Assembly: GCA_964016885.1 (NCBI GenBank)
Contig: OZ024742.1
Location: 113,088,001 to 113,152,000 of the forward strand
Length of the DNA: 64,000 bases
Source: Eledone cirrhosa
Lineage: Eukaryota
Reading direction: 5' to 3'
A program made the translations under genes and the position numbers. Positions 2,848 through 62,786 of this stretch are shown here, piece by piece. The notes beneath the pieces were generated by a model. It was not told where the DNA came from. It searched no databases and saw only the letters and a list, made by a program, of their open reading frames with translations. How positions within the stretch are numbered: the first letter of the stretch is position 1; each line of letters opens with the position of its first letter.

Positions 2848-5800
2848 ATGACCTCACTCAGAATAGGCAGCATAAATGCGCGTGGCTTGGGGTCGTCATG
2901 GAAGCAGGGCCACCTGCTCAACGACCTCAGGTCACTAAACATAGATGTAGTGGCCATCAGCGAGACCAGAATCTCTGAAGCACAGGCTTTCGCACCGATC
3001 TTCGGCGGCTACGATGTGTACGCATCTCCCAGCCGTCCGGGATCGGGGGGGGGGGAGTTGCTGTGCTTTTTCGGAGAGGTTTGGATCTTGCCATACGGGC
3101 CATCTTCCTGGACCCAGAAGGTAAGTTGGTGGTGCTGGACGTGACCAGCGGAGACGAGCAAGCTTTCAGGTTAGTGGCCGTCTATGCCCCGACAGGAGCA
3201 GGGCGGCCTGATTTCTTCCGGCGTCTGGAGACCTTTCTTGGAACGTCCCGCTCTTTAGTGTAGTGGGCGACTGGAACGGGATCTTAGATGCACGCTGGGA
3301 TTGTGTGGGATTAGTGGATAGGGGTGGAGGTTGCAAGAGTCTCACCAACCTGCTCAGACGTTTTGAACTGTCTGACAGGTACCGAATGGATTTCCCGAAT
3401 GTACCAATGTGGACTTGGACAAATCGCATAGGGTCATCCAGATCATATCTAGATAGAGTATTTTGTATGGAAATAGATAGGTCTAGCATAGGCTGTCCAC
3501 AATTCAAGATAGTCAGCTACACGGACCACAAATTCGTGATCTGTGTGCTTGACTTAGATAGGCTTCATAGACGAGGACCCGGCTACTGGAAGCTAAACGC
3601 GTCCTTACCAGCGCGCAAGGCCTACAGAGACCGGATTAGCGAACTAGTTAAGCGGGCGTTGACGGGGGCCATCGTCAACAACAAGTGGTGGTTTGCTCTG
3701 AAAAGAGCAATTAGAATAGAGTCCATTAGGTTTAGTAAGACTTTAGCAATAGAGAAAAATAGAGCAGAGGGAGAATTAGTTAGAAAATTAGATGAGGCGC
3801 TTAGCAAAGGCATCGCGACCGACGTACTTGCGGCGAAATTGGCCCTTGACCAATTCTTCAATGCAAAGCACGAAGGCTGCGTTGTCAGAGCTAGGGTGCG
3901 TGCTCTCAGACACGAGGGGACGAAAGCCGTTGAATGGGCCCGAGTGGCGGAGGCGCGTCGTGGCAACAAAGCCACGATCCGGTCTTTGGTGGACCACGAC
4001 GGGCGCATGCTACTCGATCCCGGGCAAATGTGTGAAGCTTTTCAGCGACACTTCGCTCAACTGTTCGGGGGCAGTGGCGGGCCGGATCGAGGGATGGACT
4101 TTAGTGTCTACCTCGACGGACTGCCGCGGCTTTCGGCCACTGAGGCGGAGTGTTGCGAAAAGCCGATAACAACCGCTGAAGTACGGGATGCAATGACTAG
4201 TTGCACAAGGGGCAAATCGCCTGGTTTGGATGGTCTGCCCTATGAACTTTACGTACAAATGCCAAACTTGTTCGGAGGCCTCTTGGCGGACGTCTACTGC
4301 AACTGGCAACAGAACGGGAGAATTCCCAGCTCTGTGAGCCGAGGAGCGGTGGCGCTGCTGAGAAAGGATCCGGACAAGGGGGATAACATAGATAATTTTA
4401 GGCCCATAACTCTGCTAAACACAGAGTTCAAGATTTTGGCCAAGGTGCTAGCAAAGAGGTTGGCGCTTGTCGTTGGTGGTCTGGTGGGAGAGGCACAGAC
4501 ATGCGCCATTCCCGACAGATCCATCCACGACAACCTCCACCTCATGCGATACATCGTAGAGAGGGTAGCTAGGGAACCTGGCACGGGTGGGTCTTTGATC
4601 AATTTAGATCAGTCGAAAGCCTTCGATAGGGTCGACCATCGTTACCTAGCGGCAGTCCTGAGGGCGACTGGCTTTGGGCCCGTCTTCAGAGGCTGGATCG
4701 CTGCCATGCACAGCGACATCTGCTCTGTAGTGAGAGTGAACGGTCACCTTTCGGAACCGTTCAACATCATGCGCTCGGTCCGCCAAGGGTGTCCCCTCTC
4801 GTCCCTATTGTACGTATTGACTCTCGAGCCATTACTGCACAAACTGGAGACGTTTAGGGGGGTCCCGCGCGAACTAGGATGCGGAAGATCCGTGTCAGCA
4901 TATGCCGACGATGTCACCGTAGTGGTGTCGAACGCCAAACACATCGAGGCGATCGGCACTACACTAAGAGAATACGAAGCGGTGACAGGAGCAATGATCA
5001 ACCAGGAAAAGTCAGTGGGCCTGCAGCTCGGCACCTGGAGAGGCAGGTCCATGCCGTCCAACAGCGTCGTCGGGCGCTGGACGGACGGACCGGTTAAATT
5101 GCTAGGGGTCTGGTTCGGTCCAGACCTCCAGACGGACAAAAACTGGGACGAGGTGACGAGCAGGGTGGCTTCTCTCACCCAGAAATGGGCCGAGAGGAAG
5201 CTATCCCTAAAAGGTCGAGCGGAGGTGGCGAATGCGTACATCGCATCCGTCATCTACTACCGCCTGACCGTCGTACCTTGTCCTAAGCACCGCCTGACTG
5301 CGCTGGAGCGTTTGCTCTTTCCCTTCTTGTGGAAGGGACGCGCTCCGATGGTCAGGCGGTCCATCTGCTGTCAACACCCGCTACGTGGAGGGCTGGGCAT
5401 GCCGTGGCTGATGATGCGCAGACACGCGCTCAGGCTACGACATCTCCACCTCTTCCTCGACGGTGATCAGGTGTGGTCGCCGTTTGCAAGACACGTTTTT
5501 CCCCAGCTCGTCTCCTTGACGGAGCTGCAGTCCTGGGTCAAGCGAAGACCGAGAGGGAGCGCTTGGAGACTGGAATGTCTTCAGGCGCTCACAGCCCTCG
5601 ACCAATCGGGCAATGTGATCGGTGGAAACTCCACCTTGGCGTTCTATAGGGGATTAGTGGAGGGGAAGAGCGACGACGTACTTGGAGAAACTCTAGGCGT
5701 CGACGAAAATCAACTAGCCAATCTCTTCGGAAGGACTTTCGGGCCGGGGCCTATGGACAACTTCCAGAAATCCCTGGCCTGGCAGTGCTACCGAGGAGAT

Positions 5801-6268
5801 TTGCCAGTTCGGGATAGACTCTACAGGCATGGAGGTGCCGTCAGCCGGGCATGTCCGAGATGCGCGCAGGGCGACGAAACCGTCCTGCACGCACTCGTCC
5901 AGTGTCCGAGCATTGCTGACTTGTGGGTTTATGTCGAACACCTGCTGTCACGTGTAGGACGGATCCAGCTATCAGCTGAGTCCATCGTGAGGATTGCCCC
6001 ACCCCCTTCCTTTAGCCTGGAAGGGCAGGCAGTTTTTATCTGTCTGGTGGCCATGGCGAAAGAGATAGTATGGTGGACACGTTTGAAAGGGCTGAAGACG
6101 AGCACTTACCTCTTCGGTGATGCCCTGATTAACTTTTTCAAATTTCATTTGAAAAGGAAAATCAGGGTAGAGAGGGAAGTGCTCTCTTCCCAGCATTTTG
6201 TTGAAAGATGGGTGAGAGAAGCAAGTATGGCCCGAATGAATGGGCCTTCTCTGAGTATGTGTCTGTAA
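2848..6268 (+). pseudogene. LINE ORF2 (AP endonuclease + reverse transcriptase + C-terminal CCHC), split by two 1-bp frameshifts
   Basis: APE motifs SINARGL, ISET, VYAP, GDWN, YLDR, TDH. RT motifs KSPGLDG, FRPITLLN, DQSKAFD, VRQGCPLS, YADD. Zn finger CPRC..ETVLHALVQC. Frame changes at the G11 run (3045-3055) and at ~3260. Confidence 0.92.
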
Positions 6269-28620: not shown

Positions 28621-29152
28621 GGACTCTGCTTCCACGATATTTTCATGAATAATTAGGAGAATAAGAGAATAAGAAACTTCCCTGTGGAAATGTGTCATAT
28701 TCTTCTTAATTTATACCCTCTGCTTTAGCATCCAATGCTAATATTATTATCACCTGCATTCAGCCACTGATCATTTTCCTGTTTACCTTCATCTGATTAC
28801 AGATTATATAAACATTATCATTTTTTAACATGTCGAAAACGAGAGATTGTTAAAATAAGTATCATATTTCTCCTGCACATACATTATGTCTGCATTGATA
28901 TTGTTTTAGTTCTTGTGTTTCTTGTTGCTCTTATCGAACTGTTTCGAACACTAGTCACATGCCTTTGTAGCAAGCTTCATATCCCATTATGAGTTTATAA
29001 TGTTAACTATATAAATCTTCCACACTGACATTCTGAGTTTTACAATTCAATGGCACTGATTTGCTTGTCTTTTATTTAACACAGAACCAATAATATCTGG
29101 ATGAGTTTGACTATTATGAGATTCGTGTAATGGGCCCTGTATGCCTACACTC

Positions 29153-29229
<77 letters not shown>

Positions 29230-29274
29230 TGTGTATATGTATACGTATATATATATATATATGTGTATATATAT

Positions 29275-30640
29275 CACCCTCGCCACGTAGGGCCTACATA
29301 GGGTTAACCACCAATAGATTCAAGCAACGTCTTTACATGCATACCCATTCTTTTCGTTACCCTCTAAGAAGGTATATGACGTCACTTTCAGCTTATATCT
29401 GGAGTCTAAAAGACAACCACACCCAATATAAGTTACACTGGGAGATCCTGGCTAGGGCTAAATCGTATAATGGAAATAAAATACCATGTGACCTCTGCGC
29501 CGTTGAGCCCCTGGAAATACTCTACGCCACAGACCACATCTTAAACAAAAAATCTGAGGCAATTTCAGCTTGTAAACATAAATTGCATAAAACTTTCCTG
29601 TATTACAGCCCCACGTTATACCCTAACGGAAAGTATGATCTATACGTGTATATTTTACGTCTTGATGTGGTAGCTAAGTATTTGTTTTGTTCATACCATT
29701 ACTTATTTGCATAGGTAAGTATATATTACCTGTATGTTTTCTTAAGGTACGTCTACTTTCTCGTACGTATATTTGATTCTATATGTTATGGCGTATAATT
29801 TTATGTTATATATTCTGTTACATATGGTTTGGTTATGTGTATACGGGAGTTTTGCGTCTGTGTGAGTATGCAGGTTCGTACGTATGTAGGGTTTGTGTAT
29901 ATCTGTACTTCATGATTTGGTTGACTTACGTCTCCGAATATTTGTGTATTTACATGTAGGTATGTGTGTGCGCTTGTTATATACGTATTTATTTATTTAT
30001 ATACGTTTATTTAATTATTTATTTATTTGTATACACGCACACAGACACACACATATTAATATGTGCGTGGTTTTGTATACCTATGGTAAGTGTTTTCGCG
30101 TATGCTTGTGTATGTACGTTGTTGTATGTGTGTATGTATTTATTTAAATACTATTACCTCTATATTGTATTTATTTACTTTACTCTTAACTCTGAAGCGG
30201 AGATACATTCGGTCTCATGGTTAGAATTTTAGTCTACGACATCTGCTATACCATTTGCGTGGTTTTGACTTTGCGTTCAATTGTTCTCCACGTTCCACAT
30301 ATGACGTATTATCTTCGTTTTTCTTCGTTCATTGCCAGAGAACGTCTCTATGAACCACCTAAGAGAACATTACTCTACGGCCTATTTTATACCATAAACG
30401 TCGTTCTGTCTTTGCGCGTAATTGTTTTTCACCGCTCCTATTAATGACGTATTATATTCCTTTTTTCCCGTTATTTGCCAGGGAACGTTTCCACGAACCA
30501 AAGTATCGTCTCCCTATCTTCCTCCGGTTGCAACGTTTTTTGAAATATCCACTTCTGTGTTTACAGCTTGATTTGTTATTTTCAGAAGATCCCGTTAAGG
30601 GTCAAATCAGCGACTAATTGCTCAAACTTTAATCTGTTAA
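29275..30640 (+). mobile_element. 5'-truncated Penelope-like element (Naiad-like): GIY-YIG C-terminus plus long 3' UTR
   Basis: YIGLTTNRFKQRLYMH..SF..TSLSAYIWSLK..W.I..CDLC..E..LNKKSE..CKH parallels the endonuclease at 62430-62786. The 3' UTR recurs at 48200-50760. Confidence 0.85.
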
Positions 30641-30650
30641 ATATATATAA

Positions 30651-30704
<54 letters not shown>

Positions 30705-32039
30705 AGACATAGAATATTCGAAAATATTCTGTATGTTTATAATAAACATTTTGAAGACCTAATCGCTATAGAATAGAATACGTCACGTATTACAATTAGA
30801 TTCTCGATAAAAGCAAGGGAAGTAATCTACGCGTTTCATTCTTGTTAGAATTCATCAGGACTACATATCCAGTGCTTTTATCGAGAATGACACAGCTAGA
30901 GACTTATAGAATACTTAGCTGTGTACTGGAACTGGTTTGAAAGAGCGGTTGCCGGTCCGGCAGAAATTAGAAATTGGAATAAATGCTCTGAAATAGCGAT
31001 ATATATGTGAGTATAGACATAGAATATTCGAAAATATTCTGTATGTTTATAATAAACATTTTGAAGACCTAATCGCTATAGAATAGAATACGTCACGTAT
31101 TACAATTAGATTCTCGATAAAAGCAAGGGAAGTAATCTACGCGTTTCATTCTTGTTAGAATTCATCAGGACTACATATCCAGTGCTTTTATCGAGAATGA
31201 CACAGCTAGAGACTTATAGAATACTTAGCTGTGTACTGGAACTGGTTTGAAAGAGCGGTTGCCGGTCCGGCAGAAATTAGAAATTGGAATAAATGCTCTG
31301 AAATAGCGATATATATGTGAGTATAGACATAGAATATTCGAAAATATTCTGTATGTTTATAATAAACATTTTGAAGACCTAATCGCTATAGAATAGAATA
31401 CGTCACGTATTACAATTAGATTCTCGATAAAAGCAAGGGAAGTAATCTACGCGTTTCATTCTTGTTAGAATTCATCAGGACTACATATCCAGTGCTTTTA
31501 TCGAGAATGACACAGCTAGAGACTTATAGAATACTTAGCTGTGTACTGGAACTGGTTTGAAAGAGCGGTTGCCGGTCCGGCAGAAATTAGAAATTGGAAT
31601 AAATGCTCTGAAATAGCGATATATATGTGAGTATAGACATAGAATATTCGAAAATATTCTGTATGTTTATAATAAACATTTTGAAGACCTAATCGCTATA
31701 GAATAGAATACGTCACGTATTACAATTAGATTCTCGATAAAAGCAAGGGAAGTAATCTACGCGTTTCATTCTTGTTAGAATTCATCAGGACTATATATCC
31801 AGTGCTTTTATCGAGAATGACACAGCTAGAGACTTATAGAATACTTAGCTGTGTACTGGAACTGGTTTGAAAGAGCGGTTGCCGGTCCGGCAGAAATTAG
31901 AAATTGGAATAAATGCTCTGAAATAGCGATATATATGTGAGTATAGACATAGAATATTCGAAAATATTCTGTATGTTTATAATAAACATTTTGAAGACCT
32001 AATCGCTATAGAATAGAATACGTCACGTATTACAATTAG

Positions 32040-32128
32040 ATTCTCGATAAAAGCAAGGGAAGTAATCTACGCGTTTCATTCTTGTTAGAATTCATCAGGA
32101 CTACATATCCAGTGCTTTTATCGAGAAT
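32040..32128 (-). ncRNA. Type I hammerhead ribozyme (representative of 5 minus-strand copies, every 310 bp leftward)
   Basis: Reverse complement of 32398-32486. Confidence 0.9.
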
Positions 32129-32397
32129 GACACAGCTAGAGACTTATAGAATACTTAGCTGTGTACTGGAACTGGTTTGAAAGAGCGGTTGCCGGTCCGG
32201 CAGAAATTAGAAATTGGAATAAATGCTCTGAAATAGCGATATATATGTGAGTATAGACATATTCTATGTCTATACTCACATATATATCGCTATTTCAGAG
32301 CATTTATTCCAATTTCTAATTTCTGCCGGACCGGCAACCGCTCTTTCAAACCAGTTCCAGTACACAGCTAAGTATTCTATAAGTCTCTAGCTGTGTC

Positions 32398-32486
32398 ATT
32401 CTCGATAAAAGCACTGGATATGTAGTCCTGATGAATTCTAACAAGAATGAAACGCGTAGATTACTTCCCTTGCTTTTATCGAGAAT
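32398..32486 (+). ncRNA. Type I hammerhead ribozyme (representative of 7 plus-strand copies, every 310 bp rightward)
   Basis: gtagtc-CTGATGA-attct(aaca)agaat-GAAAcgcGTA-gattac. Stem I gtagtc/gattac is extended past an internal loop by a perfect 16-bp helix attctcgataaaagca/tgcttttatcgagaat. Predicted cleavage is after A32458. Confidence 0.92.
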
Positions 32487-34481
32487 CTAATTGTAATACG
32501 TGACGTATTCTATTCTATAGCGATTAGGTCTTCAAAATGTTTATTATAAACATACAGAATATTTTCGAATATTCTATGTCTATACTCACATATATATCGC
32601 TATTTCAGAGCATTTATTCCAATTTCTAATTTCTGCCGGACCGGCAACCGCTCTTTCAAACCAGTTCCAGTACACAGCTAAGTATTCTATAAGTCTCTAG
32701 CTGTGTCATTCTCGATAAAAGCACTGGATATGTAGTCCTGATGAATTCTAACAAGAATGAAACGCGTAGATTACTTCCCTTGCTTTTATCGAGAATCTAA
32801 TTGTAATACGTGACGTATTCTATTCTATAGCGATTAGGTCTTCAAAATGTTTATTATAAACATACAGAATATTTTCGAATATTCTATGTCTATACTCACA
32901 TATATATCGCTATTTCAGAGCATTTATTCCAATTTCTAATTTCTGCCGGACCGGCAACCGCTCTTTCAAACCAGTTCCAGTACACAGCTAAGTATTCTAT
33001 AAGTCTCTAGCTGTGTCATTCTCGATAAAAGCACTGGATATGTAGTCCTGATGAATTCTAACAAGAATGAAACGCGTAGATTACTTCCCTTGCTTTTATC
33101 GAGAATCTAATTGTAATACGTGACGTATTCTATTCTATAGCGATTAGGTCTTCAAAATGTTTATTATAAACATACAGAATATTTTCGAATATTCTATGTC
33201 TATACTCACATATATATCGCTATTTCAGAGCATTTATTCCAATTTCTAATTTCTGCCGGACCGGCAACCGCTCTTTCAAACCAGTTCCAGTACACAGCTA
33301 AGTATTCTATAAGTCTCTAGCTGTGTCATTCTCGATAAAAGCACTGGATATGTAGTCCTGATGAATTCTAACAAGAATGAAACGCGTAGATTACTTCCCT
33401 TGCTTTTATCGAGAATCTAATTGTAATACGTGACGTATTCTATTCTATAGCGATTAGGTCTTCAAAATGTTTATTATAAACATACAGAATATTTTCGAAT
33501 ATTCTATGTCTATACTCACATATATATCGCTATTTCAGAGCATTTATTCCAATTTCTAATTTCTGCCGGACCGGCAACCGCTCTTTCAAACCAGTTCCAG
33601 TACACAGCTAAGTATTCTATAAGTCTCTAGCTGTGTCATTCTCGATAAAAGCACTGGATATGTAGTCCTGATGAATTCTAACAAGAATGAAACGCGTAGA
33701 TTACTTCCCTTGCTTTTATCGAGAATCTAATTGTAATACGTGACGTATTCTATTCTATAGCGATTAGGTCTTCAAAATGTTTATTATAAACATACAGAAT
33801 ATTTTCGAATATTCTATGTCTATACTCACATATATATCGCTATTTCAGAGCATTTATTCCAATTTCTAATTTCTGCCGGACCGGCAACCGCTCTTTCAAA
33901 CCAGTTCCAGTACACAGCTAAGTATTCTATAAGTCTCTAGCTGTGTCATTCTCGATAAAAGCACTGGATATGTAGTCCTGATGAATTCTAACAAGAATGA
34001 AACGCGTAGATTACTTCCCTTGCTTTTATCGAGAATCTAATTGTAATACGTGACGTATTCTATTCTATAGCGATTAGGTCTTCAAAATGTTTATTATAAA
34101 CATACAGAATATTTTCGAATATTCTATGTCTATACTCACATATATATCGCTATTTCAGAGCATTTATTCCAATTTCTAATTTCTGCCGGACCGGCAACCG
34201 CTCTTTCAAACCAGTTCCAGTACACAGCTAAGTATTCTATAAGTCTCTAGCTGTGTCATTCTCGATAAAAGCACTGGATATGTAGTCCTGATGAATTCTA
34301 ACAAGAATGAAACGCGTAGATTACTTCCCTTGCTTTTATCGAGAATCTAATTGTAATACGTGACGTATTCTATTCTATAGCGATTAGGTCTTCAAAATGT
34401 TTATTATAAACATACAGAATATTTTCGAATATTCTATGTCTATACTCACATATATATCGCTATTTCAGAGCATTTATTCCA

Positions 34482-34511
<30 letters not shown>

Positions 34512-34592: not shown

Positions 34593-34705
34593 ATATATAT
34601 ATATATATTTATATGTATTCAGTTTTGGTTTTAAGTAATACAGGTTGCGCATTTCTAAAGCTTTTCAAAAATAATTTTGAGATAGTGCGCCCGTGATGTT
34701 TGCTC

Positions 34706-34902
34706 TAATATATGTATATATGTATGTATATATGTATGTATATATATATGACGTTATAGTCGCATATATGTTATAGAATGCCGTTAGCTTCTTGCTAAAA
34801 CAATCTCCATACCTCTCATTTATATATATGTATATATGTATGTATGTATGTATATATATATATATATGTATGTATGTATGTATATGTATATATGTATGTA
34901 TG

Positions 34903-36204: not shown

Positions 36205-39200
36205 GTTTTCTCTTTCTCTTAATTTCGAGTATATTTTTTTGACCGGCCACCTTCCTGGTGGCAAGGTTGTAAAAGAAAAGAAATTGTCATCCCTTGAATC
36301 GCAAGAATGTTTTGCATATTTTGAAGGTGCCAGCCATCGCAGCCATTTGTAGACTATGAATTAGGGAGCTGCGCTTTTTGTCCGCAAATCCAAGTTCGGT
36401 CATACTTTGGTCCAAGCGGGTTGGTATATAATCCGTAGCACCAATAATGATGGGTATGAAGCTAAAGGTGTATCTTGGATACTGGATTTGTAAGCTCCTC
36501 ATCAATGGTCCGTAGATGTCCTCCTTCTCCTGTATTTTTCTGACAACGTTTACATCAAGTGGGCAGCTGATCTCCACAACAGAACACGTTTTCAATGTGT
36601 GGTCCCAAACTACAATATCAGGCCGGTTGTGCTTTAATTTGGTGGCAGTTTTTATTTTCAGGTTCCACCAGTATTCCTTAGTGCCATCTGTCTCAATATA
36701 TTCTTCCTCGTTTGTTGTTAATTTTGTTTTCCGAAGTGCGTTCCAGATAGTTCTAGCTATCCCATCGTGTCTCATGGGGAGGTAGTAGCGAGATGACATT
36801 CTTTCGCAGCTGGCAACAATGTGGCTTACATCCTCGATCTTTGTTTTACATAGCCTACATTTATTGTCAGCTGCTGGCCCTCCTCTTTTGTGCAGCAGAT
36901 ATTTGGTAGGGAGTTCTTGTTCCTGTATTGCATAGAGATATCCCTCAAGGTGTGATGTCATAAACTTGTCGGAACTCCATGCCAGGCTTTTTGAGTGGTT
37001 TATCCCCTCTATGGTCTGTGTTTTACGCCTCAAGTATCCATGCACAACTTTCTCTGTAAATTGGTCAATTTTTTTTTCTTGTTTGAACATTGAATAGGAT
37101 CTTCCGATTTCTCTGGGTGAGAGATTTATATCAGGCTTTATTCCATATCTCTCCTCCAGATCAGTCGCTATTCTAATGATATTTCTTTTTTCATGCTCAT
37201 AAACCTGAGCAAGATGGTCGCCAACCTTTTTCCTCTGTTGAAGGTGTTGCTTCAGTGTTACTATCCGGGTCTCATATGTTGTTAATATTGATTTTAGACC
37301 CCGGCCACCTTCCTTGCGTGAGAAGTATAGCCTATCCACATCACCATTGATGTTAAAGTTCCCAGTAACACTGAGAAGTTTACGAGTTCTAACATCCATC
37401 TCACTTAGTTCTTGCAATGACCAGTTCAGCAGGCCAAATGTTGGCGTTATAATTGGCACAGCATAGGTATTGTGGGCAATGTATTTGTTGTATGCTGACA
37501 GTTCTGATGACCATATTTTTTTTACTCTTCTGAGGTATTCAGTTCTGGTTCTCTCCTTATTTATGGGTCCATCATATCTGACATTCTCATCCTGTCCAAG
37601 ATATCTGTAGTTGTCACCTGACTGCAGAGGTTGTATTGTCAGGCCGTTCATATCTAGATTTCTAGAGGAGGGCACAGCTCTTCCACGTTTTACTGCCAAA
37701 TATGCACACTTGGACTCACCAAATTTCATTTTGATGTCGGTTGAAAATTGTGTAATGAGGTCCAATTGTTTCTTGATGTCATTGATATTTGGCCCATACA
37801 ACTTCAGGTCATCAACAAAGAAAAGATGGGAGATACTTCTGGGCCTACTTCTTTGTCCACCTTGTTTCCTGAGTAGGTAAGATAGTGGATTCAGTGAGAG
37901 AACGAAGAGTAGTACTGACAAGCTATCACCCTGAAAGATGCCCTTCTGGTAATGTATCCTATCAGTCTTAACCTGCTCCTTCTCACCTCTAAGGATCAAA
38001 TTGGTGTACCAGTTCTTGGTCAGGCGTTCAACAGCAGCTACTAATGGTTGTGGGACTTTAGCTAACTGTAAAGCCTTAATAATCCACCCATGAGGTACAC
38101 TATCAAATGCTTTTTGATAGTCCAGCCACACGACAGTCATGTTTCTGCGATTCTTTGTTGTTTTTTCCTGAATCATTTTGTTAGTTAGTAGGTGATCTAT
38201 GCAACCCCACACCTCCCTCTTTCCACCAGCTTGCTCAGGTGTTATGATGTTGTTGGTAGCACAGTGATCCTGTAAGAACAGGTTAAGGCACCCAGTATAT
38301 AATTTATACATGATGTTTTGGCAGGCAATTGGGCGGTAATTTTTAGCAAGGGTGGTTTGGCTATTTTTGGGAATGAGGAGAGTAGTGGCAGTTGATAACC
38401 ATCTGGGCAGTTCTTGTGTGCCCTTAATGGTTTCTGTAAACAGCCGTATGAGATCTTGCCGATAGAAAGTGAAATTCTTCAACCAGTATCCTGTAATGAG
38501 GTCTGGGCCTGGCGATTTCCTATTCGACATTTTCTGTAGAGCTGTTTCCAGTATTGACCCATCTATGTCATATTGTTTTGTCTGGACATGTTGGCAGTAG
38601 TCCTGTTCCAGTTGTTTTAGCCAATTAGCTTGTCTGTTGAATCCGTCATCCGTTTCCCATACAGATCTCCAGTAGTTCTCAACCTGTTCTTTTGAAGGGG
38701 TGTCGTTTACATGGATTGAGCTTTTGCCACCGAAGCTGCGATAAACTGATTTAGGATCTCTGGCAAACAATCTATTTAGCACTTGTCGTTTATGGGCTGT
38801 TGACTTATATTTTAGTCTTTCTGTTGTAGCTGTGAGTTGTTGTTTCAACTGGTGTAATTTGGAGTTCAAAGTTTTAAATTTGGTATCTCCAAATCGTCTC
38901 TCTAACTTTTTCTTTAGGTCTTCCTGGTGTCGTGTGAAGTTTCTCTCTATGTTGCATTTCATAACGACTGCGATGTGTGAGATACTTCGTCTCAGGGACA
39001 AAATTTTGGTTTTTAAATTTCGCATCCACGCTGGTTCAGGCTTTCTGTTTGTATCTTGATTGCGTGGTTTTAGATGTGTGTTATATGATAGCAATGTGAC
39101 AGCTGAAACATATAACAAAACATTGAGCGTTTCAAATGTCGTTTCTACACCTTTAGATCGTATAGCCTTCAGATAATTGCCAGCTATTTCGTTCACCGCT

Positions 39201-40428
39201 TCCAATTCCAATTTAGTGGGTTCTTTACTGACTCTAGTGTTGTACGGTCTGTCACTCACATTAAGGCTGTGTATCTCTTGAAACATATCGTTCCATATCA
39301 CTTGTAGGGTGCCCACAAGTTTTTGGTGCTCTGTTTGTTCAGTAGAGTCATGAATTGCAGCCTCGTTGTTGATGTGGTGACAATTACTACTAGAGTCAGC
39401 TGACCTTTCTCGCTGTTCTTCAGTGGAAGTGGGATGGATTTCAGCAAAATTGTTGGTGAGCTGTTCACTGTTAGATTTAGCCGGCCATTCTCTTTGTCTG
39501 TCAGTGGAGGTGGGGTGGTTGTCTACAAGGGCTGTATTTGTAGTATCACTCGATTCCGTTAGATGTATCAATTTACATCTAATGATACGTTTTGCCTGTT
39601 CATTTAGATGCTTTGGAGAAAAGTCTAATTCTGGGTGTTTGGAGTTCCATAAAGTTTTTAGCCTTTGCATAAAACCGAACTTTTGGGGTTCAGATTGTTT
39701 GTATGCTTCATATAATTCTTTGTTAAGCTCGTAGCTCCACTGTATACAACGGTTGTAATTGCGATTTGGTCGAAGGAGACTTGTACTTTTTGCCATGATG
39801 AGTTCGTCTATTCACTAATATTTTGTATTTATTTTTTTTAAATAGTCGATGATCTTCTTTAAAAGTTACGACAAAGTTCTGTCAGAATCAAATTTAAAGT
39901 TATTCACAGCTTGGGTAATATTTCTTTTCAGTTAGTTTTTAATTCTACAACTGTGTTTTAAACGTTGTTCTTGAATCGTTTGAATCGAGAACAAAAAGAA
40001 CCGTTACTTAGTATATTCCTTTACGAATGTAATATAATATAACAATGCTGTATTTATATGTTAAAGTTTATGTATCATTCATATAAATAGGTGTTCTACA
40101 ACATATTCACAACATTCACAGTTCAAACACTTATATTTTTGTTTCTGAATCGAAAACGTTACTTTTATATTTCTTTATAAATGTAATATAACAACGTTGC
40201 ATTTATATGTTAAAGTGTATGTATCGTTCATATATCATAAGTGTATGTATCGTTCATATAAATAGGTGTTTTACAACACACTTACAGTTCAAACACTTAT
40301 GTAGAATTATTGTATGTAATCTTACCGCGTAATGTAGCTCAACTTTTTCCAATATATGGTATGTTGCCTTCATGTAAGCCGTAATTACACACGTCCAATT
40401 ATCGGACACTGACCACAACGGTCGCCAT
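36205..40428 (-). mobile_element. Apparently full-length R4/Dong-like non-LTR retrotransposon
   Basis: Single long ORF with ~630-bp 5' UTR and ~80-bp 3' UTR, flanked on both sides by TA/TATG repeats. Confidence 0.88.
36287..39796 (-). CDS. RT + CCHC + restriction-like (REL) endonuclease polyprotein, 1169 aa, uninterrupted
   Basis: [46 protein letters not shown], then [26 protein letters not shown] and K..Y. Confidence 0.93.
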
Positions 40429-41972: not shown

Positions 41973-44900
41973 ATGAAACTCGCTCGTCATCGTGACATTG
42001 TAATAGAGCCAAACAGGGCATTTAGTCTTGGCTGCTGGAACGTACGGACGCTGCTTCACAGGGATTCCTTGGGGCATCCTGAACGAAGGACCGCTCTTGT
42101 TGCAAAGGAGCTTCGACGTTACGATCTTGAGATCGTGGCTTTATCTGAGACGAGGCTAGCTGGAGATGGTCATCTTACGGAATTTTGTGGAGAATATACA
42201 TTCTTCTGGAAAGGAAGAGATGAAGGAACCAGAACAGAGGCTGGGGTAGGATTTGCTGTTAAGCTGTGCCTGTGAACAAATTAGAAGAATTCCCAGTAGG
42301 GATTAGTGAGCGTCTTATGTCCATGAGAGTTCCGCTGGACAAGGGAAGATATGCTACTCTGGTGACTGTGTATGCACCAACTATGAGTTCTGTCGATGAG
42401 GAAAAGGTGTATTTTTACCATGCCTGGAAAGGTGTTTTAAGAAATATCCCTCAGGCAGACAAAGTCATCGTGCTTGCTGACTTTAATGCTAGACTGGTTA
42501 GGGATTTTAACACATGGAATGTAATAGGAAGGCATGGGGTGGGACAGTGTAACAGCAATGGTATGCTCCTGCTGCAGATGTGTGAGGAGCTGGATCTGTG
42601 TGTTACCAACACCATGTTCCAACAAAAGAGCAACTTCAAGACCACATGGATGCATCCTGCATCTAAGGAATGGCATCTTTTGAACTACGTCCTAGTCAGG
42701 ATGCGTGACAGACAGATGTGCAGTGTGTTCGTGTTCTTCGTGGAGCTGAGTGTTGGACGGACCACCGCCTGGTACGCGCAAATGTGAAACTAATCAATAA
42801 ACGTAAAGTCCGGGCTCCTGGTGTTGCCCTGCCCAAAAGATTGAATGCTGCTCGTCTTAAGGATAAAAATGTGAAGAGGCTGCAGATCTTGGTGAGGATT
42901 GGCCGACCCTTAAAAAGTCGGTTTATGATGTAGGCAGGCGTGTTCTGGGATTGGCGCAGAGGAAACATCAGGACTAGTTTGATGAGAATGATGTACATAT
43001 AGAAGACTTGTTGGCTGATAAGAGGCGTGCTCTGTCACGCTACTTGACGGCAACACCACAGGAGAGGAATACGCTGCATGAGGAACTCAGGGATGTAAAA
43101 TCACGTATTAGGCGGAGTCTTTCTCAGATGAAGGATCAGTGGTGGAGTGAGAAGGCTGGTGAGATACAAACTGCGTCTGATTCCAATAACACAAAGCGGT
43201 TGTACAGTCTCTTGCGTGAAGTTTATGGACTGTCTTCTTCTTTGGTGACACCGCTTCGCAGCAAGGATGGCAAAGAACTTATTCGTGACTCATAAGGAAT
43301 TCTACGAAGGTGGCGAGAGCACTTTGATGATCTTTTGAATCAGCCGTCTGTCGTCAGTGAAAATTTCCTCAATCTCATTCCAGAAAGTCCTGTGAAAGTA
43401 GCTCTCGCAGAACCTGCGACGCTTGTGGAGGTTGCAGTGGCTATTTCGAAACTGAACAGTGGAAGATCTCCAAGTATGGATGGCATACATGCTGAGCTCC
43501 TACAATATGGTGGTGAGAGACTCCTGCAGCATCTTCCCTCTTTGTTTGGCAGGATATGGGCTAATGAATCCGTACCTGAGGACTGGAGAGATGCAGTAAT
43601 GGTGGTCTTGTACAAGGGAAAGCGTAACAGGAACGATTGTGGGAACTACAGAGGTATATCATTGCTTTCTGTCGTAGGGAAAGTTTTATGTAGGGTGCTT
43701 CTGGACCGTCTGCTGACACACATTGCAGATTGTGTTCTTCCTGAAAGTCAATCTGGTTTTCGTGCTGGACGCGGCACTACTGATATGATCTTCTCAGCTA
43801 GACAGCTCCAGGAGAAGTGCATGGAACAGGGCTTGGGTCTGAATCAGGTTTTTGTCGATCTGACAAAAGCTTTCGATACTGTTAACAGAGTGGCATTATG
43901 GAAGGTTCTCCAGAAAGTTGGTTGCACTGATAAGTTCCTTGCTTTAGTTAGGTCTTTCCATGACGACATGAAGGCGTGGGTTAATGTCGGGGGTAACATG
44001 TCGGAGCCTATCTCAGTAAATAATGGAGTGAAACAGGGGGATATTCCAGCACCGACCCTGTTTGCCATATACTTTGCAATGGTTTTCTGTATTGCATTCA
44101 GGAATTGCGAGCATGGTGTTTACATCCGATATCGAACCTCAGGCAGCATATTTAACATCAGGCGCTTTGCTGCGAAGACAAAAGTATTTACATCAATCAT
44201 AAGAGACCTCTTGTATACAGATGATTGCGTTCTTGTAGCGCACACAGAAAGTGATATGCAGCACATTTTGAATGCATTTTCTGACGCTTGCACTGCCCTA
44301 GGTCTGACTGTCAGTCTCAAGACAACCGTCGTCATGTACCAACCTGCCCCTGGTAAGCAGTACACTGAACCAAACATCTATGTGCATGGAAAACGACTTG
44401 GAGTGGTTGATCAGTTTGTCTACCTGGGAAGAACTGTCAATCGATACAGCAACTTGACAGTGAAATCTCACTTACGATTAGGAAAGCATGTGATGCTTTC
44501 GGAAAGCTAGAAAGAAGACTCTGGGGTCGGCGAGACATATGCAGGAGGACAAAAGTAAAGGTGTACAGGGCATGTGTGCTCTCTTGTCTTATTTATGCCT
44601 GCGAGACATGGGTCACATATCGACACCACCTTAAGCAATTGGAGCGTTTCCATCAGATGTGTCTCAGACGGATCCATGGCATTCACTGGAGGGACCACAT
44701 CAGTGATGTCGATATTTTGGAAAGCTCGATGTGTGACAGTATAGAAGCTCTTGTGCTTAAGCAACGACTCCGTTGGAGTGGTCACCTTGCCAGGATGAAG
44801 GATTCTAGAATAGCCAAACAACTCTTTTATGGAGAGTTGGTTAAAGGAAAACGATCGCCGCATAAACCAAAACAGATGTATAAGGATTCCTGTGAAGCCT

Positions 44901-45394
44901 CTCTGAAAGACGCTAACATCTCTGCTGATACATGGGAGAATATTGCTGCTGATCGTAATAAATGGAGAAAGACTGTATATGAGGGAAAAGTTGCCTTTGA
45001 GGCATCTCGAATCCCATACGAGAAAGTAAAGCGGGATGTGAGGAAGGGCATTGCTGTTGCACTTCCAGACGGCGAGGGTCCTCCTATCGTGCTGACATGC
45101 AGCGTATGTGCGAGACACTGTCTAAGCAAAGCTGGACTCGAAAGTCATTTTCGCAGTCATAAAGTAAGACCAGTGGTTGACTACCAGGCTGCTGTTGGAG
45201 ATGCTACCCATCATGCCTGCCAAACATGTGGTAGAGAATGGAAATCAGCAGGAGGGCTCAAGCGACATGCAAAAGTACACGAACTCCAACCACAGCCGAC
45301 TATTCCCAGTAAATGTTTTGGTTGCCGACTCTGTGCAAGATACTTTAGATCATTGGCTGGGCTAAAAAGCCACATTCGATCGCAGCGCTGTTAG
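41973..45394 (+). pseudogene. RTE (BovB-like) LINE ORF: APE + RT + three C-terminal C2H2-like fingers, with several frameshifts and stops
   Basis: WNVRTL, ERRTALVAKEL..LSETR, VYAPT, DFNAR, WTDH, NYRGISLLS, FVDLTKAFD, GVKQGD, LLYTDD, QRLRWSGH. Breaks near 42270, 42715, 42885-43000, 43293 and 44450. Confidence 0.92.
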
Positions 45395-45826: not shown

Positions 45827-48706
45827 TATGTGTATGTGTGTGTATGTGTGTGTGTGCGTGAATACATACTCGAGCTGAAAAGCTCTGTCCGATATATATT
45901 ATACATACTTGTATGACATCATTTATTCTTTGAAATATGAAAGTGCGTTCTTGCTTCCTTCCTTGAATTACATTATATACAATGCACAACACATGTGAGT
46001 CTCTATCACCTGTTTTCTCTTGATATTTAATCATTAAATACAGAGCGTAATTACTAATTAGAAATAGCATGACACGCGATCATCTAACACAAGTTTTTTT
46101 GAATACATCATAATGAATATTGTTATACAGAATCGACCATGACTGGAATACGACTTAATCTAGATATTTAAATGATACTTTTCCATACTAAGATATTAAT
46201 TAGCTCGCCTTTTACAGATCTACTTCAAGAACTTCTTAACATTATTTGATAACATATTAGATTTCTATTTTTCTTAGACTTGCAATAATACTTCATTACA
46301 TTTATTCTTTAAATTGATCATGTTATATATATTATTTGTAACCTTTCTCCTAGAAACACACATGCAGCTAAATCAGATAAAGGCAGTTTTTGAAAGTCAT
46401 ATAATAACGATGTAATCGTATTGCTTGCCGGTAAGCCACGTTTCTGCATAATCCTCTCTACGCTAATTACCTTACACTAATAATAAAATTAGAGTAGTCT
46501 CCACGCAATTGATCACACATTTAAATTATATACATTTTGTAATAATGCTATACAATTCTCAGTCAAAATAAACACCTTGCTTAAGTGATATTAGAAAACA
46601 TATAGGTTTCAGGGAATCAGATATAACCACCTGTAAAAATGTGAAATCTAATTGGGTTTTGAAGCTGTTCAGATTACTAGATGTATCAGTCTAATAGTAT
46701 GGAAATAATAGTCCTCTAGTGTATTATTAAAATAATAAAGAACATATTGTAAGATAATGAATTCCAATAAATCATATTCTGAATTTATCGATATATAAAT
46801 ATAAACAAGGTTAGGATTTGAGATATCATAATATAGAAGAGGAGTTAAATATATTGTGTGTACAATAGGCAATTAAAAACAGCTTGTGTGTACAATAGGC
46901 AATTAAAAACAGTATAAATGTTAATGTAAAGTTCAACAAATCAAAGAAAATTAAACTCACATAGCATAATATTTTCATATACTCGTGAACCAAGCATAAA
47001 TGTGGGATAAATTAATTCATTTATTTTCCTCGGATTTACTTATTTGCAGGAATATATATGTAAATTAGATCATCATGAATAATCTACCATGCCATATTCT
47101 TTAATATAAGTTACACTAGATATCTTACAGACACAAATGGTACAGAGATATCTTAAAAAATGAAGACAAATATATTTACTATTGAATTGCTCTATCTCTC
47201 ATTCAATCTCTCTTGTTTTCTCTTCCTCTCTTTCTCTATGATTCTATATTTCCCTCTCCCTCACTGTCGTAAGGTTAGATAGAAAGAAGAAATCAGAGAG
47301 GGCAGATGGAAGCCAAATTTTGACGAAAACCACACGGTCTTTTAATGATTCCTTCCCCTGCAATGTTGCCACTAGCCCAGAGGAATATTAAGCGCATGGA
47401 GGGTTCACTGGACATAGTTAATGTCTCCCTATATTTACTTATTCTTAGAAGATTGTGAGTTTTATTTCTGTCGAGGTTGTATGCAAACACTGCAGATGTT
47501 TTAACAAAGTGAAATATGTGCATGAAAAATAACACCAAAACTACTTACATAGCTAGAGTTACGGTCAACATAAGAAGTGTAGAAGCATATAATATAAGAA
47601 AGCGCGTTTTTACCCTAACCTTTGGAGTGGCCTGGAAACATGGAAACATCTGCACACATACTCCAACACGTAAAGGATTTTGAAGCTATGAATAATTATA
47701 GAATAATATAAACTGATGCTAGATTATTATACGAAAGTGATGAATACTTAGCGAACAATAATAACTCAGAAACAAGACACGTAAAATGTAACCATATGAC
47801 GGCTCACGATAACCATACTGACACTAATCCTAATTCTAACAAACATCTTTCTACACCTCTAGCTTCGCTTCAACAAACAATAACATACACAACTTATACC
47901 GTTTTTAGCAGGTTTAATTCCGTTTATTGTATTCTATTATATTCTAGTTTCCCCCCTCTCATCCTCCTATAGCCTACGCAACTTACAATGTTCAGAGCCA
48001 CACGCATTACAGAAACAAATACAACACTCCATACATACTAATATATTTTTTGACATACACCAAAGCATTATATATATATATATTTATATGTGTGTGTTTG
48101 TGTGTGTGTGTGTGTGTGTATGTATGTGTGTGTATGTGTGTGTGTGTATGTGTGTGTGGGTATGTGTGTATGTTTGTGTGTGTGTGGTGTATATATATAT
48201 ACTTTGTGTTTTGGTTGACGTGCTTCCCGAACATATGAGTATTTACATATAGGTACGTGCGCTTGTTATATACGTATTTATTTATTTATATATATTGTTA
48301 TACTTTGGGAGGGTCATGTTGCTAATAAGAAACACACGCACCAGTTGCTTTCACTTCAATTTATTATATATTTACAAATTTACAAATTTATAAATTTATA
48401 AATTTCTGGTTGGTTGGTTGGTTCCACAACCAGATAGTTGTTTATATATAGTCATAGTCATTTCGTCACACACTCTGTGACCTCTTCAGTGACTGGGGAT
48501 TCCTTTCTTTGTTTCTGTGCCTCTCCTTTGTTCTGTCCTACGCCATTTTGTTTCTGTGTGTGTGTTGTGTGCTCAGTTTGCGCATGCGCCACATCCGGGT
48601 GTCTGTGTGTGTTTATGTTCATTTATCTATTTGTTTGTTTATTTATTTATTTACATGTTATTGGTTGGTTGTATGTTCTATGTGTGTGTGTGTTTTCATT
48701 TTGTCC

Positions 48707-49255
48707 TTAATTGTAAGTTGTGATGTTGCTGTTCCACTCATATTTTCTATTTAATTTTGGTTGTAATTCTTTTATGTTTATTGCCTCTGTAATTTGTCTA
48801 AACATTGCATCTTTTCTGTGTGTAGATTCTATTTTTATTTCTATGTTCTCTAATTTACCCTTGTGTTCTATCTTAGCATGTTGGTAGAGTACAGATGATT
48901 CTTTATTATCTTGAAGGTCTCGCCAGTGTTCATTTATCCGTTCCCCTATATTACGAGCTGTCTCACCTATGTACACTATATTTTTGTTTCTACATTGTCC
49001 TTCAGTACATCTTATGCTATACACTACATTTATAGTTTTACAGTTAATATGGGGGCTTATTTTACAGGTTATACATTTCTTATCTATACATGAGGGTCTT
49101 TGAAAAGTGTATGTCTTGCTAATATGTTTTTTTACGGAGGTACCTGGTCTTTCTACTATCTTAATATTGGGTTTATGTTTATTTAGGGCCCTTCTAAATG
49201 TGTAGGCTAGTTCGCCTCTAGGGGTTGTACCGATGAACATTACACTCTGGTATTT
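48707..49255 (-). pseudogene. PLE C-terminal fragment: Cys linker + GIY-YIG endonuclease
   Basis: CIDKKCITC..INCKTINVVYSIRC..IVYIGETARNIGERINEH..EA..I...P.LN. Confidence 0.9.
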
Positions 49256-49625
49256 ACAAGGGTAAATTAGAGAACATAGAAATAAAAATAGAATCTACAC
49301 ACAGAAAAGATGCAATGTTTAGACACATTACAGAGGCAATAAACATAAAAGAATTACAACCAAAATTAAATAGAAAATATGAGTGGAACAGCAACATCAC
49401 AACTTACAATTAAGGACAAAATGAAAACACACACACGCATAGAACAAAGAACCAGCCAATAACATGTAAATAAATAAATAAATAAACAAATAGATAAATG
49501 AACATAAACACACACAGACACCCGGATGTGGCGCATGCGCAAACTGAGCACACAACACACACACAGAAACAAAATGGCGTAGGACAGAACAAAGGAGAGG
49601 CACAGAAACAAAGAAAGGAATCCCC

Positions 49626-49670
49626 AGTCACTGAAGAGGTCACAGAGTGTGTGACGAAATGACTATGACT
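49626..49670 (+). ncRNA. Minimal hammerhead ribozyme in the PLE pseudo-LTR (mirror copy at ~48450-48494, minus strand)
   Basis: agtca-CTGAAGA-g-gtcac(agagtgt)gtgac-GAAA-tgac-TA-tgact. Stems I and II pair, and stem III is minimal. Confidence 0.72.
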
Positions 49671-49889
49671 ATATATAAACAACTATCTGGTTGTGGAACC
49701 AACCAACCAACCAGAAATTTATAAATTTATAAATTTGTAAATTTGTAAATATATAATAAATTGAAGTGAAAGCAACTGGTGCGTGTGTTTCTGATTGGCA
49801 ACATGACCCTCCCAAAGTATAACAATATCGGTTTCAACACACGATTTCAGATAAAGAATCTTGCCAAACAAATTCAGAAACGAAATATT

Positions 49890-60435: not shown

Positions 60436-60654
60436 TATATTGTATTGATTTTTATACATTAAATTTTGCTCTGATACTTACATAGAGCACTCTTCATTTC
60501 TATGACCTTTTCTGTTTCCAACGGAAATTTCAATACTTATAAAGCTCCCAAGGGAATGATCGCAGCATATTCTACATCGTTATGAGATTGGCACCTTCCA
60601 GCCCTTTTTAAGTCGAGCACTCTTCAGTCATAGGATTTTAAACCAATACCGAAT

Positions 60655-62786
60655 ATGGACAAATACCCTTTGGACTACTCTGTAAAGAATATCCCAACAC
60701 CTTCTAACACTCTCTAGACGAAAATACTAATAGACAAAGTAGAGAAGGTTGTTAAAAGAATGAGATGGAAAGCTTTGATTCTCGATAGTCAATTTAACAC
60801 GGATTCTACGGAATATTTTGACATCAAAACTCACAAATACCCGCAAAGAGTAAAAGATATTACCGCCTTTGAATTAGACCTAGTTAACTTTATCAACAAC
60901 ATCAATTTTCGTAAGTACTCTAACCCCTTTCAATCTAAATTATCTAATGATATTTCTACTTTCAAATCTTCTAATAATAAGTTCATCTTCTCAGATAAAA
61001 CTAAAAACCTATATGAAGTTAATAATAATTTACACGACCAACTATTAATAGATAATATCACCTCTAAATACCAAATAGCTAATATAAATACGTACCATAA
61101 TATAAATAAGGAAGCTAAATAATTAGCTGTTTCTTTAAAAATAGATAATAGGACAGAAAAACTTGCTAAACGTTCTACGTATATCACCCTTAAAGATCAT
61201 AAACCCGACTTTATAAATCGCCCTAGTTGTAGATTAATCAAACCTGCTAAGACTGATATTGGTCTTGCCAGCAAAAATATTTTAAATAAATTAAATACAC
61301 ACATTAGAAGTAAGTCTAAATTACTCCAATGGATAAATAGCTCTTCCGCAGTACATTGGTTTAATAATATTAAAAACAAAATCAGTTCTAGATTCACCCA
61401 ATTTGACATCGTAGACTTCTACCCATCTATTACTGAGACCCTTTTAGTGAAAGCTTTAAATTTCGCTAGAGGGTTCACTAATATCTCCGATATTGAAGAG
61501 GATGTCATCTTGCATGCAAGGAACACTCTACTTTTTAATGATAATGACACTTGGGTAAAAATATCTAACCCAGAGAACCCATACGATGTCTCAATGGGCT
61601 CTTATGACAGTGCCGAGGTTTGTGATCTGGTCGGCCTATTCCTCTTACATACACTTAAAGAAAAATTTCCTAACCATATTTTTGGGCTTTATCGCGATGA
61701 TGGTCTAATACTTTCCCAAACCACCATAGGCCATAACTTAGATAGATTAAGGAAAGACTTAATAAAAACCTTCGCTAGTTTTAATCTTAAAATTACTATT
61801 GACACTAACCTTTCCAACGTAGATTTCCTAGATATAAACCTAGATGTGCCTACTGCTTCTTATAAACCATACCATAAACCTAATGAAAACTTAAAATATA
61901 TAAATAAAGGATCTTGCCATCCACCTATAGTTTTTAAAAACCTTATCCCTAATATTAGCCGTAGGATCTCCACCCTCTCTTCATCAGAAGCTATTTTTAA
62001 TAAGGCATCCCCCTACTATAATAAAGCCCTCCAAAATAGCGGCTTTAGCGAACCGATTAAATACATACCTAACTACACTAACTCTATTAAACATAAAAAT
62101 AGGAAAAGAAAAATAATCTGGTTCACACCCCCCTACTCTCTAGCAGTTAAAACTAATGTAGGCAAAACATTCCTAGAACTCCTAGATAAACATTTCCCTA
62201 GAACACTTAGATACTATAAGATCTTTAACAGAAACTGTGTTAAAATTAGCTATTCCTGCGGTCCCCCTATTAAGTCCTATATCCTCAACAAAATATCACC
62301 TAGAGAAAATCAAACTTGCTCCTGTAGAATCAAAAGTGAATGCCCATTACAAGGTAAATGCAACACCAAAGCCATTGTATATGCGGCTAAAGTGATAACC
62401 ATCAGCAACAACCATCCAGCCACCAGTGAACGATATGTGGGTATGACGCAAGACGGATTCAAAACGCGTTATTACTCACATGTCGCATCTTTTCGACATC
62501 CAGAAAAAAGATTTACAACAGCTCTGGCTAGCAGAATTTGGGATTTGAAAGACCAAGGCATCCAATATAATGGTCAATTTTGAACCAATCTAAAAAATAT
62601 GCTAGAGGAACAAGAAAATGCACGCTCTGCATAAATGAAAAATTTTGGATATTGCAAAATCTTAAATCACCAAAGACCTGCCTGAACACAAAGACGGAAA
62701 TTTTCACCAGTTGCCCACACATGAAATCACACCTGCTTTCCAGCTCATATAAACTTAACACACTTTCAGAATCTTATCCTCCATAA
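60655..62786 (+). pseudogene. PLE RT + GIY-YIG endonuclease ORF with two in-frame stops and one frameshift
   Basis: YSVKNIP, KRMRWKA, TLKDHK, FDIVDFYPSI, MGSYDSAEVCDLVG, GLYRDDGL, WFTPPYS, CSCR..CPL.G.C, AIVY..YVG, CTLC..EK, CPH. TAG at 60715, TAA at 61120, frameshift at ~62570. Confidence 0.92.

What the first reader, a model, noticed from the sequence alone, without database searches (positions are those of the whole stretch)
30701..34485. Twelve-copy hammerhead ribozyme array: candidate retrozyme / circular-RNA replicon family
Seen: what looks like a plain 310-bp satellite carries one intact type I hammerhead per unit (CUGAUGA, 5-bp stem II, GAAA, GUA cleavage triplet, stem I with internal loop and 16-bp extension). 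No ORF of 60 aa or more appears in the track. Units are nearly identical; I noticed only one variant (C>T at 31794). The rest of the unit is also hairpin-rich (acacagcta/tagctgtgt, atgtttat/ataaacat, gaatatt/aatattc). Established: animal non-LTR retrozymes are tandem units of a few hundred bp with type I hammerheads that self-cleave to monomers and accumulate as circular RNA. Inference: this is a young insertion made by rolling-circle reverse transcription of a 310-nt circRNA. Whether the family is undescribed needs a database search.
Basis: partly seen in the sequence, partly recalled or inferred. Interest (0 to 1): 0.9.

Follow-up and report, generated by a model that had tools for sequence, protein, structure and literature searches.

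The report
Two-armed ribozyme retrozyme with Penelope footprint
A 310-base non-coding repeat carrying a hammerhead self-cutting RNA motif sits at well over a thousand places in this animal genome as back-to-back arrays with two fixed ends, the footprint of Penelope-type jumping genes, so it is likely a small parasitic RNA circle copied round and round into DNA by a Penelope enzyme, a route proposed before but not shown at insertion level in the papers searched.

Summary
The hammerhead is real (12 copies), but this is not one head-to-tail track. It is two divergent arms, 5.0 units on minus and 7.2 on plus, set in a (TA)n tract. The family has about 19,800 units in this 3.0-Gb genome. Of 100 two-armed insertions scored, 98 end at site A (126-139 nt after the cleavage site) on one side and site B (about 165 nt) on the other; the other two are parser splits, and none is A+A or B+B. 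This is the Penelope-like element (PLE) signature: inverted 5' copy, 30-40-bp tail, microsatellite target. A young autonomous RT+GIY-YIG PLE here follows the same rule (18 of 18) with similar offsets but no sequence likeness, so it is a candidate helper only. Both arms share one haplotype (51 of 55), variants are fixed through whole insertions at about the per-unit error rate, and arms cross the cleavage site freely. This favours rolling-circle copying of a monomer circle; 3 insertions show multimer templates. Stem III is predicted to form only in dimers. No RNA, cleavage or helper was tested. Verdict: new member of the non-LTR retrozymes, with unusually direct mechanistic evidence.

The parts
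30641..30700 (.). Left (TA)n target tract; it lies at the end of an older PLE-like remnant (about 29094-30640)
   Evidence: GIY-YIG-end similarity at 29292-29615
30701..32261 (-). Arm 1: 5.0 units, hammerhead sense on minus; outer end at site A (127 nt after the cleavage site), inner end at 117
32259..32261 (.). Inversion junction, 3-nt overlap shared by both arms; not a perfect palindrome centre
32259..34485 (+). Arm 2: 7.2 identical units; inner end at 111, outer end at site B (167 nt after the cleavage site)
32398..32486 (+). One type I hammerhead with extended stem I (core 32428-32458, predicted cut after A32458); repeated every 310 bp, 7 copies on +, 5 on -
32453..32457 (+). Minimal palindromic stem III (within ACGCGU, 32452-32457), predicted to pair only between two copies
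   Evidence: PMC4209133 passages
34448..34485 (+). 'Tail': the stretch between site A and site B, present at the outer end of arm 2 only
31794..31794 (+). The one private variant (C>T; G274A in the sense strand, breaks a distal stem I pair in one unit)
34485..34511 (.). Right (TA)n target tract

Best explanation
This is one insertion of a young, high-copy non-coding hammerhead repeat (a non-LTR retrozyme) whose insertions carry the Penelope-like element footprint, and it was likely made when a borrowed Penelope RT/GIY-YIG enzyme cut a (TA)n tract and used both DNA ends to copy a predicted 310-nt RNA circle many times round. Steps. (1) Shown: two divergent multimer arms, outer ends one at A and one at B, in (TA)n. 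(2) Inferred: arrays are transcribed, pairs of hammerheads cut multimers to monomers, and a host ligase closes them; a lone circle would not cut itself because stem III needs a partner. (3) Inferred from the anatomy and the Poseidon in vitro data: both nicked strands prime reverse transcription, one at site A and one at site B about 35 nt downstream, on the same RNA or on RNAs from one donor. (4) Inferred: each RT rolls through the ribozyme until it falls off (median 3.3 units, up to about 46), and the two cDNA ends are joined by microhomology or fill-in. (5) Shown for 3 insertions: some templates are multimers. (6) Candidate only (about 45%): the helper is the young 784-aa RT+GIY-YIG family found here.
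For: 98 of 100 two-armed insertions are A+B, 0 are A+A or B+B, and the 2 others are parser splits read as A+B; 20 of 20 in the set not chosen by its ends. All are divergent. 138 of 140 ends lie in (TA)n (one end of 52 loci was chosen that way). The autonomous PLE (RVT_1 + GIY-YIG) gives 18 of 18 A'+B', with ends at +124-131 and +164. Arms share a haplotype in 51 of 55 insertions against a shuffled mean of 8.5, max 17. 17 of 74 insertions have a variant fixed in every unit of both arms and in no other such insertion (up to 24 units), close to the 0.17 minor variants per unit that a monomer bottleneck would fix. Only 8 of 75 minor variants are shared in register, against the one third expected from in-register linear templates (p = 5e-6). 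Inner ends are not enriched at the cleavage site (3 of 146, 4.7 expected); 149 of 157 arms cross it. Inherited stem changes keep pairing in 5 of 6 with none in the core; private ones keep it in 2 of 21 (p = 0.0014). Literature: PMC8557442, PMC11167929, PMC4209133, PMC7229834.
Against: No RNA, circle or cleavage was observed. L083, L101 and L198 share unit-specific variants in register between arms, and L064 and L074 are mosaic, so multimer templates or DNA-level exchange occur. The long arm L087/L172 is an irregular mosaic, suggesting DNA-level expansion after insertion. 'Private' is relative to 119 of more than 1,300 loci; 2 of the 17 recur in loci outside that count (L090, L212). One dominant donor at a time would also give arm concordance. 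No PLE with a homologous pLTR was found, and the candidate helper shows no sequence likeness (score 28, null mean 28.8); its A site is 6-8 nt off. In vitro, Poseidon showed no strand difference in start site, and uncut RNA was the main substrate (PMC11167929). The July 2026 preprint saw cleavage in only 1 of 9 frog retrozyme dimers.
Confidence: 0.7

Rival explanations
1. Same Penelope machinery and twin priming, but the template is mostly a long uncut linear transcript of a donor array. Uniform arrays come from young donors plus DNA-level expansion, and the circle, if made, is a side product.
For: Three in-register and two off-register mosaics; weak stem III would leave multimers uncut; uncut RNA was the main Poseidon substrate in vitro (PMC11167929); irregular mosaic in the longest arm.
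Against: It cannot fix a new variant across up to 24 units of both arms in one step, seen in 15-17 of 74 insertions; donor errors should be shared in register far more often than 8 of 75; arrays would shrink each generation. Two RTs starting in different units of the template would weaken the in-register test.
Confidence: 0.22
2. A satellite spread by DNA routes (unequal exchange, extrachromosomal DNA circles) or by LINE twin priming, with a hammerhead that is a passive relic.
For: Several LINE-type RT ORFs lie in the window; some long arrays show DNA-level mosaics; the Rfam score is below threshold.
Against: Two fixed ends with a strict A+B rule, shared with an autonomous PLE; no poly(A) at either end; LINE twin priming starts the second arm at variable sites (recalled); inherited variants spare the ribozyme.
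Confidence: 0.05
3. The inversion is a sequencing or assembly fold-back artefact.
For: Near-identical units are hard to assemble; L072 and L186 repeat one junction across a gap.
Against: Arms differ in length and end, the flanks differ, there is no palindrome centre (longest match 2 nt), the junctions differ among 73 loci, and autonomous PLE copies show the same plan.
Confidence: 0.02

Closest known systems
Metazoan non-LTR retrozymes (Cervera and de la Pena 2020, PMC7229834; passages and Discussion read)
   Same: 170-400-nt non-coding, low-GC tandem units with one type I hammerhead each; weak palindromic stem III like axolotl HHR_Amex1; the majority haplotype has a U.U at the base of stem II like HHR_Amex2.
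   Different: That paper has 0 occurrences of 'inverted' in its main text and only suggests PLEs as helpers; here the insertions are two-armed with fixed A and B ends in (TA)n. Their circles were shown by northern blot; here no RNA was seen.
[quoted passage not shown]
   Same: Conclusion that retrozymes ride on PLE machinery.
   Different: Their evidence is co-occurrence and pLTR homology in frogs; the text read does not analyse insertion ends, and it invokes local tandem amplification by unequal crossover. Here no homologous pLTR was found, and multimers appear to be made at insertion.
Canonical EN+ Penelope-like elements: Poseidon PAc (PMC11167929, parts 1-2 of 4 read); Neptune/Naiad anatomy (PMC8557442, passages)
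   Same: Inverted 5'-truncated copy, 30-40-bp tail at one end only, two adjacent internal RT start sites, both strands cut and extended, AT-rich or (TA)n targets, hammerhead upstream of the start sites.
   Different: No ORF; both arms are long multimers of one 310-nt unit. Papers say the tail is 'often' at one end only, whereas here the A+B pairing is without exception in the insertions scored.
Non-autonomous Chlamys elements such as MRC1 of Chlamydomonas (PMC8557442, passage)
   Same: Non-coding PLE dependants that form multicopy head-to-tail insertions.
   Different: They generally resemble their helper's 3' end, and most Chlamys lack hammerheads; this family has a hammerhead and no detected likeness to a helper.

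Membership tests
Non-LTR retrozyme | Tandem non-coding units of about 150-450 bp, GC under 45-50% | tested here: met
   310 bp, GC 0.34-0.36, longest frame 59 aa
Non-LTR retrozyme | Type I hammerhead in every unit, with conserved core and stems | tested here: met
   12 of 12 cores; HH9 E = 0.003, below gathering score; selection on stems and core
Non-LTR retrozyme | Dispersed, mobile copies | tested here: met
   19,768 unit marks; 1,313 A and 1,046 B exact junctions; controls 0
Non-LTR retrozyme | Self-cleavage of monomer or dimer RNA | not testable with these tools
   Energies predict dimer-only stem III
Non-LTR retrozyme | Expressed as linear and circular monomer RNA | not testable with these tools
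   Needs northern blot or RNase R RT-PCR
Non-autonomous Penelope-like element | Inverted 5'-truncated copy framing the insertion | tested here: met
   100 two-armed divergent insertions in 119 stretches; a minority are one-armed
Non-autonomous Penelope-like element | 30-40-bp tail at one end only (two RT start sites) | tested here: met
   A 126-139, B mostly 165-172; 98 of 100 A+B, 0 A+A or B+B
Non-autonomous Penelope-like element | Microsatellite (TA)n target | tested here: met
   138 of 140 ends; partly by selection in the anchored sets
Non-autonomous Penelope-like element | Sequence homology to the pLTR of an autonomous PLE in the same genome | tested here: inconclusive
   None in 60 pattern-derived loci or 29 sampled PLE 3' ends or with the 784-aa family; the genome could not be searched exhaustively
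Non-autonomous Penelope-like element | An active EN+ PLE is present | tested here: met
   Many identical copies with open 784-aa RT+GIY-YIG frames, 0.5% mean difference among the top 29 hits, 4,830 A' junctions
Plant-type LTR retrozyme | Type III hammerheads in paired LTRs | tested here: not met
   Type I topology in tandem units
Viroid-like RNA replicon | RNA-to-RNA replication, ribozymes in both polarities, no DNA phase | tested here: not met
   Genome-encoded at about 19,800 units; hammerhead match only in the unit's sense strand; RNA-to-RNA copying itself was not testable

The most novel reading that the evidence does not exclude
A Penelope enzyme dimer loads one RNA circle with two reverse transcriptases at fixed, non-interchangeable sites 35 nt apart, each primed by one strand of the cut (TA)n target, and they chase each other round the circle to spool both arms. 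The retrozyme recruits that enzyme by shape and spacing, with no sequence homology to the helper. The same unit (2-4 changes) in runs labelled as 17 other organisms marks recent horizontal spread.
Probability: 0.2. Interest if true: 0.85.

Novelty: new member of a known kind. Interest (0 to 1): 0.58.

Why it matters
Which enzyme moves animal retrozymes, whether circles are the real template, and how Penelope elements get their inverted copy and one-sided tail are open questions in the papers read. Here a very young family leaves more than a thousand near-identical records of single insertion events, and an active Penelope family in the same genome obeys the same end rule. That turns those questions into countable genome tests and gives a ready substrate and candidate enzyme for an in vitro assay. 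If right, it is natural rolling-circle reverse transcription from both ends of one cut.

Tried and rejected
Rfam at gathering threshold: 0 matches in the window. RNA evidence: no RNA holder listed, which is no evidence either way; Hi-C run X22 laid 0 reads in about 2% of the run, not a test. Helper search: two exclusion patterns gave 45 and 87 matches, of which 30 each were read, all this family or an older sister family, with no ORF attached. Local alignment of the unit to 29 sampled PLE 3' regions gave 2 scores above their shuffle maxima: L127, which contains a sister-family insertion, and L110 (44 against 39, not examined further). The 784-aa family gave 167 of 300 shuffles at or above the observed score. 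The idea that the second arm is copied from the first arm's DNA was rejected, because neither arm is consistently the longer (Wilcoxon p = 0.16). The idea that cut linear monomers are the template was rejected (3 of 146 inner ends at the cut site). A 24-mer scan of metagenome and viral contigs found 0. Earlier findings by place and by sequence: none. Supplement search of PMC11167929 for tail, inverted, circular: 0. Dfam and Repbase could not be searched, so the family may already be catalogued there.

Full report
Observation. The 310-bp unit and its hammerhead are as described: CUGAUGA, a 5-bp stem II, GAAA, GUA at 32456-32458, stem I with an internal loop and a 16-bp extension. There are 12 cores, one variant at 31794 and no frame over 59 aa. 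Rfam finds Hammerhead_HH9 at E = 0.0032, below its gathering score. The unit folds better than shuffles (z -4.4 linear, -4.2 circular). Stem III is one A-U pair closing CGCG: forming it in a monomer costs 5.4 kcal/mol, while the ACGCGU duplex between two copies gives -7.5. PMC4209133 (passages) describes this design as allowing cleavage in multimers but not in monomer circles.

Family size. The genome is 3.0 Gb. A unit search gave 304 matches from 40 of 145 candidates scored. Exact patterns give 19,768 copies of a unit 24-mer, 3,923 of the window's hammerhead version, 1,313 A-type and 1,046 B-type junctions with (TA)n, with 0 in each reversed control. So there are at least 1,313 insertions.

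Anatomy across loci. Positions count from the first base after the cleavage triplet. I parsed the window, 20 loci chosen by unit identity, 60 anchored at a B junction and 40 anchored at an A junction. In one search, 72 of 72 complete two-armed insertions had one outer end at A (126-139) and the other at B (mostly 165-172): 20 of 20 in the unanchored set and 52 of 52 in the B-anchored set. Four loci cut by the fetch edge closed as A+B when extended, one with an arm of about 46 units. The combined run (119 stretches; L068 replaced by L174, L186 dropped as a repeat of L072, L180 dropped as cut) scored 100: 98 A+B, two parser splits that reads as A+B, none A+A or B+B. In anchored loci only the partner end is informative. 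All are divergent; the one convergent adjacency is a small internal duplication in L051. A minority are one-armed (10 of the 40 A-anchored loci by my count). Inner junctions vary: 32 with microhomology, 10 blunt and 31 with small inserts, of 73. 138 of 140 ends abut (TA)n, partly by selection.

What this matches. PMC8557442 (passages) gives the Penelope-like plan: an inverted 5'-truncated copy, a 30-40-bp tail often at one end only, and microsatellite targets, with the CX2-5CxxC linker proposed to mediate that bias in Neptune. PMC11167929 (parts 1-2 of 4) shows that Poseidon cuts and extends both strands and starts reverse transcription at two adjacent internal sites that bound the tail. Each arm here has its antisense strand continuous with a target 3' end, as expected if both ends primed cDNA (inference).

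Candidate helper. The genome holds several PLE families. One is very young: many copies with identical scores and open 784-aa frames, RVT_1 plus GIY-YIG, a CX4CX2C linker (Neptune or Nematis type), 0.5% mean difference among the top 29 hits, which were chosen by similarity, and 4,830 exact junctions of one end type. Of 27 stretches, 18 show both ends and all 18 are A'+B'; one more is probably so and 8 show one end. Its ends lie at +124-131 and +164, against +126-139 and +165 here. Four other hammerhead families sampled have other offsets, on few copies each. There is no sequence likeness, and searches for a homologous pLTR found only an older sister retrozyme. I put this helper at about 45%.

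Template. Arms cross the cleavage site 727 times (149 of 157 arms), and inner ends are not enriched there (3 of 146, 4.7 expected), so cut linear monomers are not the template. Both arms carry the same haplotype in 51 of 55 insertions (shuffled mean 8.5, max 17); 27 haplotypes occur in 74 insertions. In 17 of those 74, a variant is fixed in every unit of both arms and in no other such insertion, over up to 24 units; two recur in loci outside the count, leaving 15. Minor variants run at 0.17 per unit, about the rate at which a monomer circle cut from a donor unit would hand a new variant to a whole daughter. If both arms copied one linear multimer in register, about a third of the minor variants in the shared stretch should be common to both; 8 of 75 are (p = 5e-6), all in L083, L101 and L198. 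Those three, and the mosaics L064, L074 and L087/L172, show that multimer templates or later DNA exchange also occur. Arm concordance does not separate 'same molecule' from 'same donor'.

Selection. Among variants fixed in whole arms, 5 of 6 stem substitutions keep the pair, the sixth gives a U.U at the base of stem II as in axolotl HHR_Amex2 (PMC7229834), and the only core change is at the free position 7. Among single-unit variants, 2 of 21 keep the pair, 16 break it and 3 hit the core (Fisher p = 0.0014). The sister family keeps the +60 to +235 region at 71-81% identity with a different hammerhead, whose stem II and palindromic stem III vary by paired changes (read by eye, not counted).

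Other organisms. 20 runs from 17 studies and 18 organism labels hold 54-93% of the words; none is on record as RNA. Three that I laid each give one 340-nt contig (310 + 30, a closed cycle) with 2-4 changes at depth 26-49; both haplotypes also occur in this genome. Two sibling runs of organism F hold none. Close relatives, horizontal transfer, diet and cross-contamination are all open.

Comparison and verdict. It meets the testable marks of a non-LTR retrozyme and the insertion marks of a non-autonomous PLE; cleavage, circles and the helper are untested. The link between retrozymes and PLEs is in print as a suggestion (PMC7229834 Discussion; PMC4209133) and as co-occurrence plus pLTR homology (preprint 10.64898/2026.07.22.740005, parts 1-3 of 5, supplements not seen). 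Eight searches listed no paper on insertion ends of retrozymes; most subscription journals, Dfam and Repbase were not searched. Verdict: new member of a known kind, interest 0.58, earned by the mechanistic record rather than by the ribozyme itself.

Noticed in passing
L056, L089, L109, L111-L170: Older sister retrozyme family with the same two-ended plan, 71-81% alike over +60 to +235 but with a different hammerhead (UUUGAUAA-type core, longer palindromic stem III). This suggests the shared region is the enzyme-binding part and the ribozyme is a swappable module.
   Followed up: partly
G000:C1:276670000-276678500 (L252) and L217-L275: Very young autonomous PLE (784-aa RT+GIY-YIG frame, about 4,800 junctions) whose hammerhead-like motif has GCAA in place of GAAA; about 1.4 kb between the pLTR and the long frame was not analysed.
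   Followed up: partly
window 48190-49830: Truncated PLE with a GIY-YIG ORF (48707-49294, minus) and an inverted pLTR copy; tail of about 65 nt, a different family.
   Followed up: partly
window 29094-30640 and 34600-34715: PLE remnants on both sides of the array: a GIY-YIG end with a long 3' region on the left, and a short pLTR piece like the 784-aa family's on the right. PLEs nest in each other's (TA)n tails.
   Followed up: partly
window 3212-6268 (+), 36287-39811 (-), 43296-45394 (+), 60592-62720 (+): Three LINE-type RT ORFs (1018 aa, 1174 aa, and a split one) and another PLE-like remnant.
   Followed up: no
L097, L100: Another tandem hammerhead repeat family (period about 460 bp, copies on both strands in L097), unrelated in sequence.
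   Followed up: no
runs X4, X5, X20: The unit appears as a single closed 310-nt cycle in runs labelled as other organisms; the source is unexplained.
   Followed up: partly
L160: A homeobox exon (Pitx-like by recall) lies near a sister-family copy.
   Followed up: no
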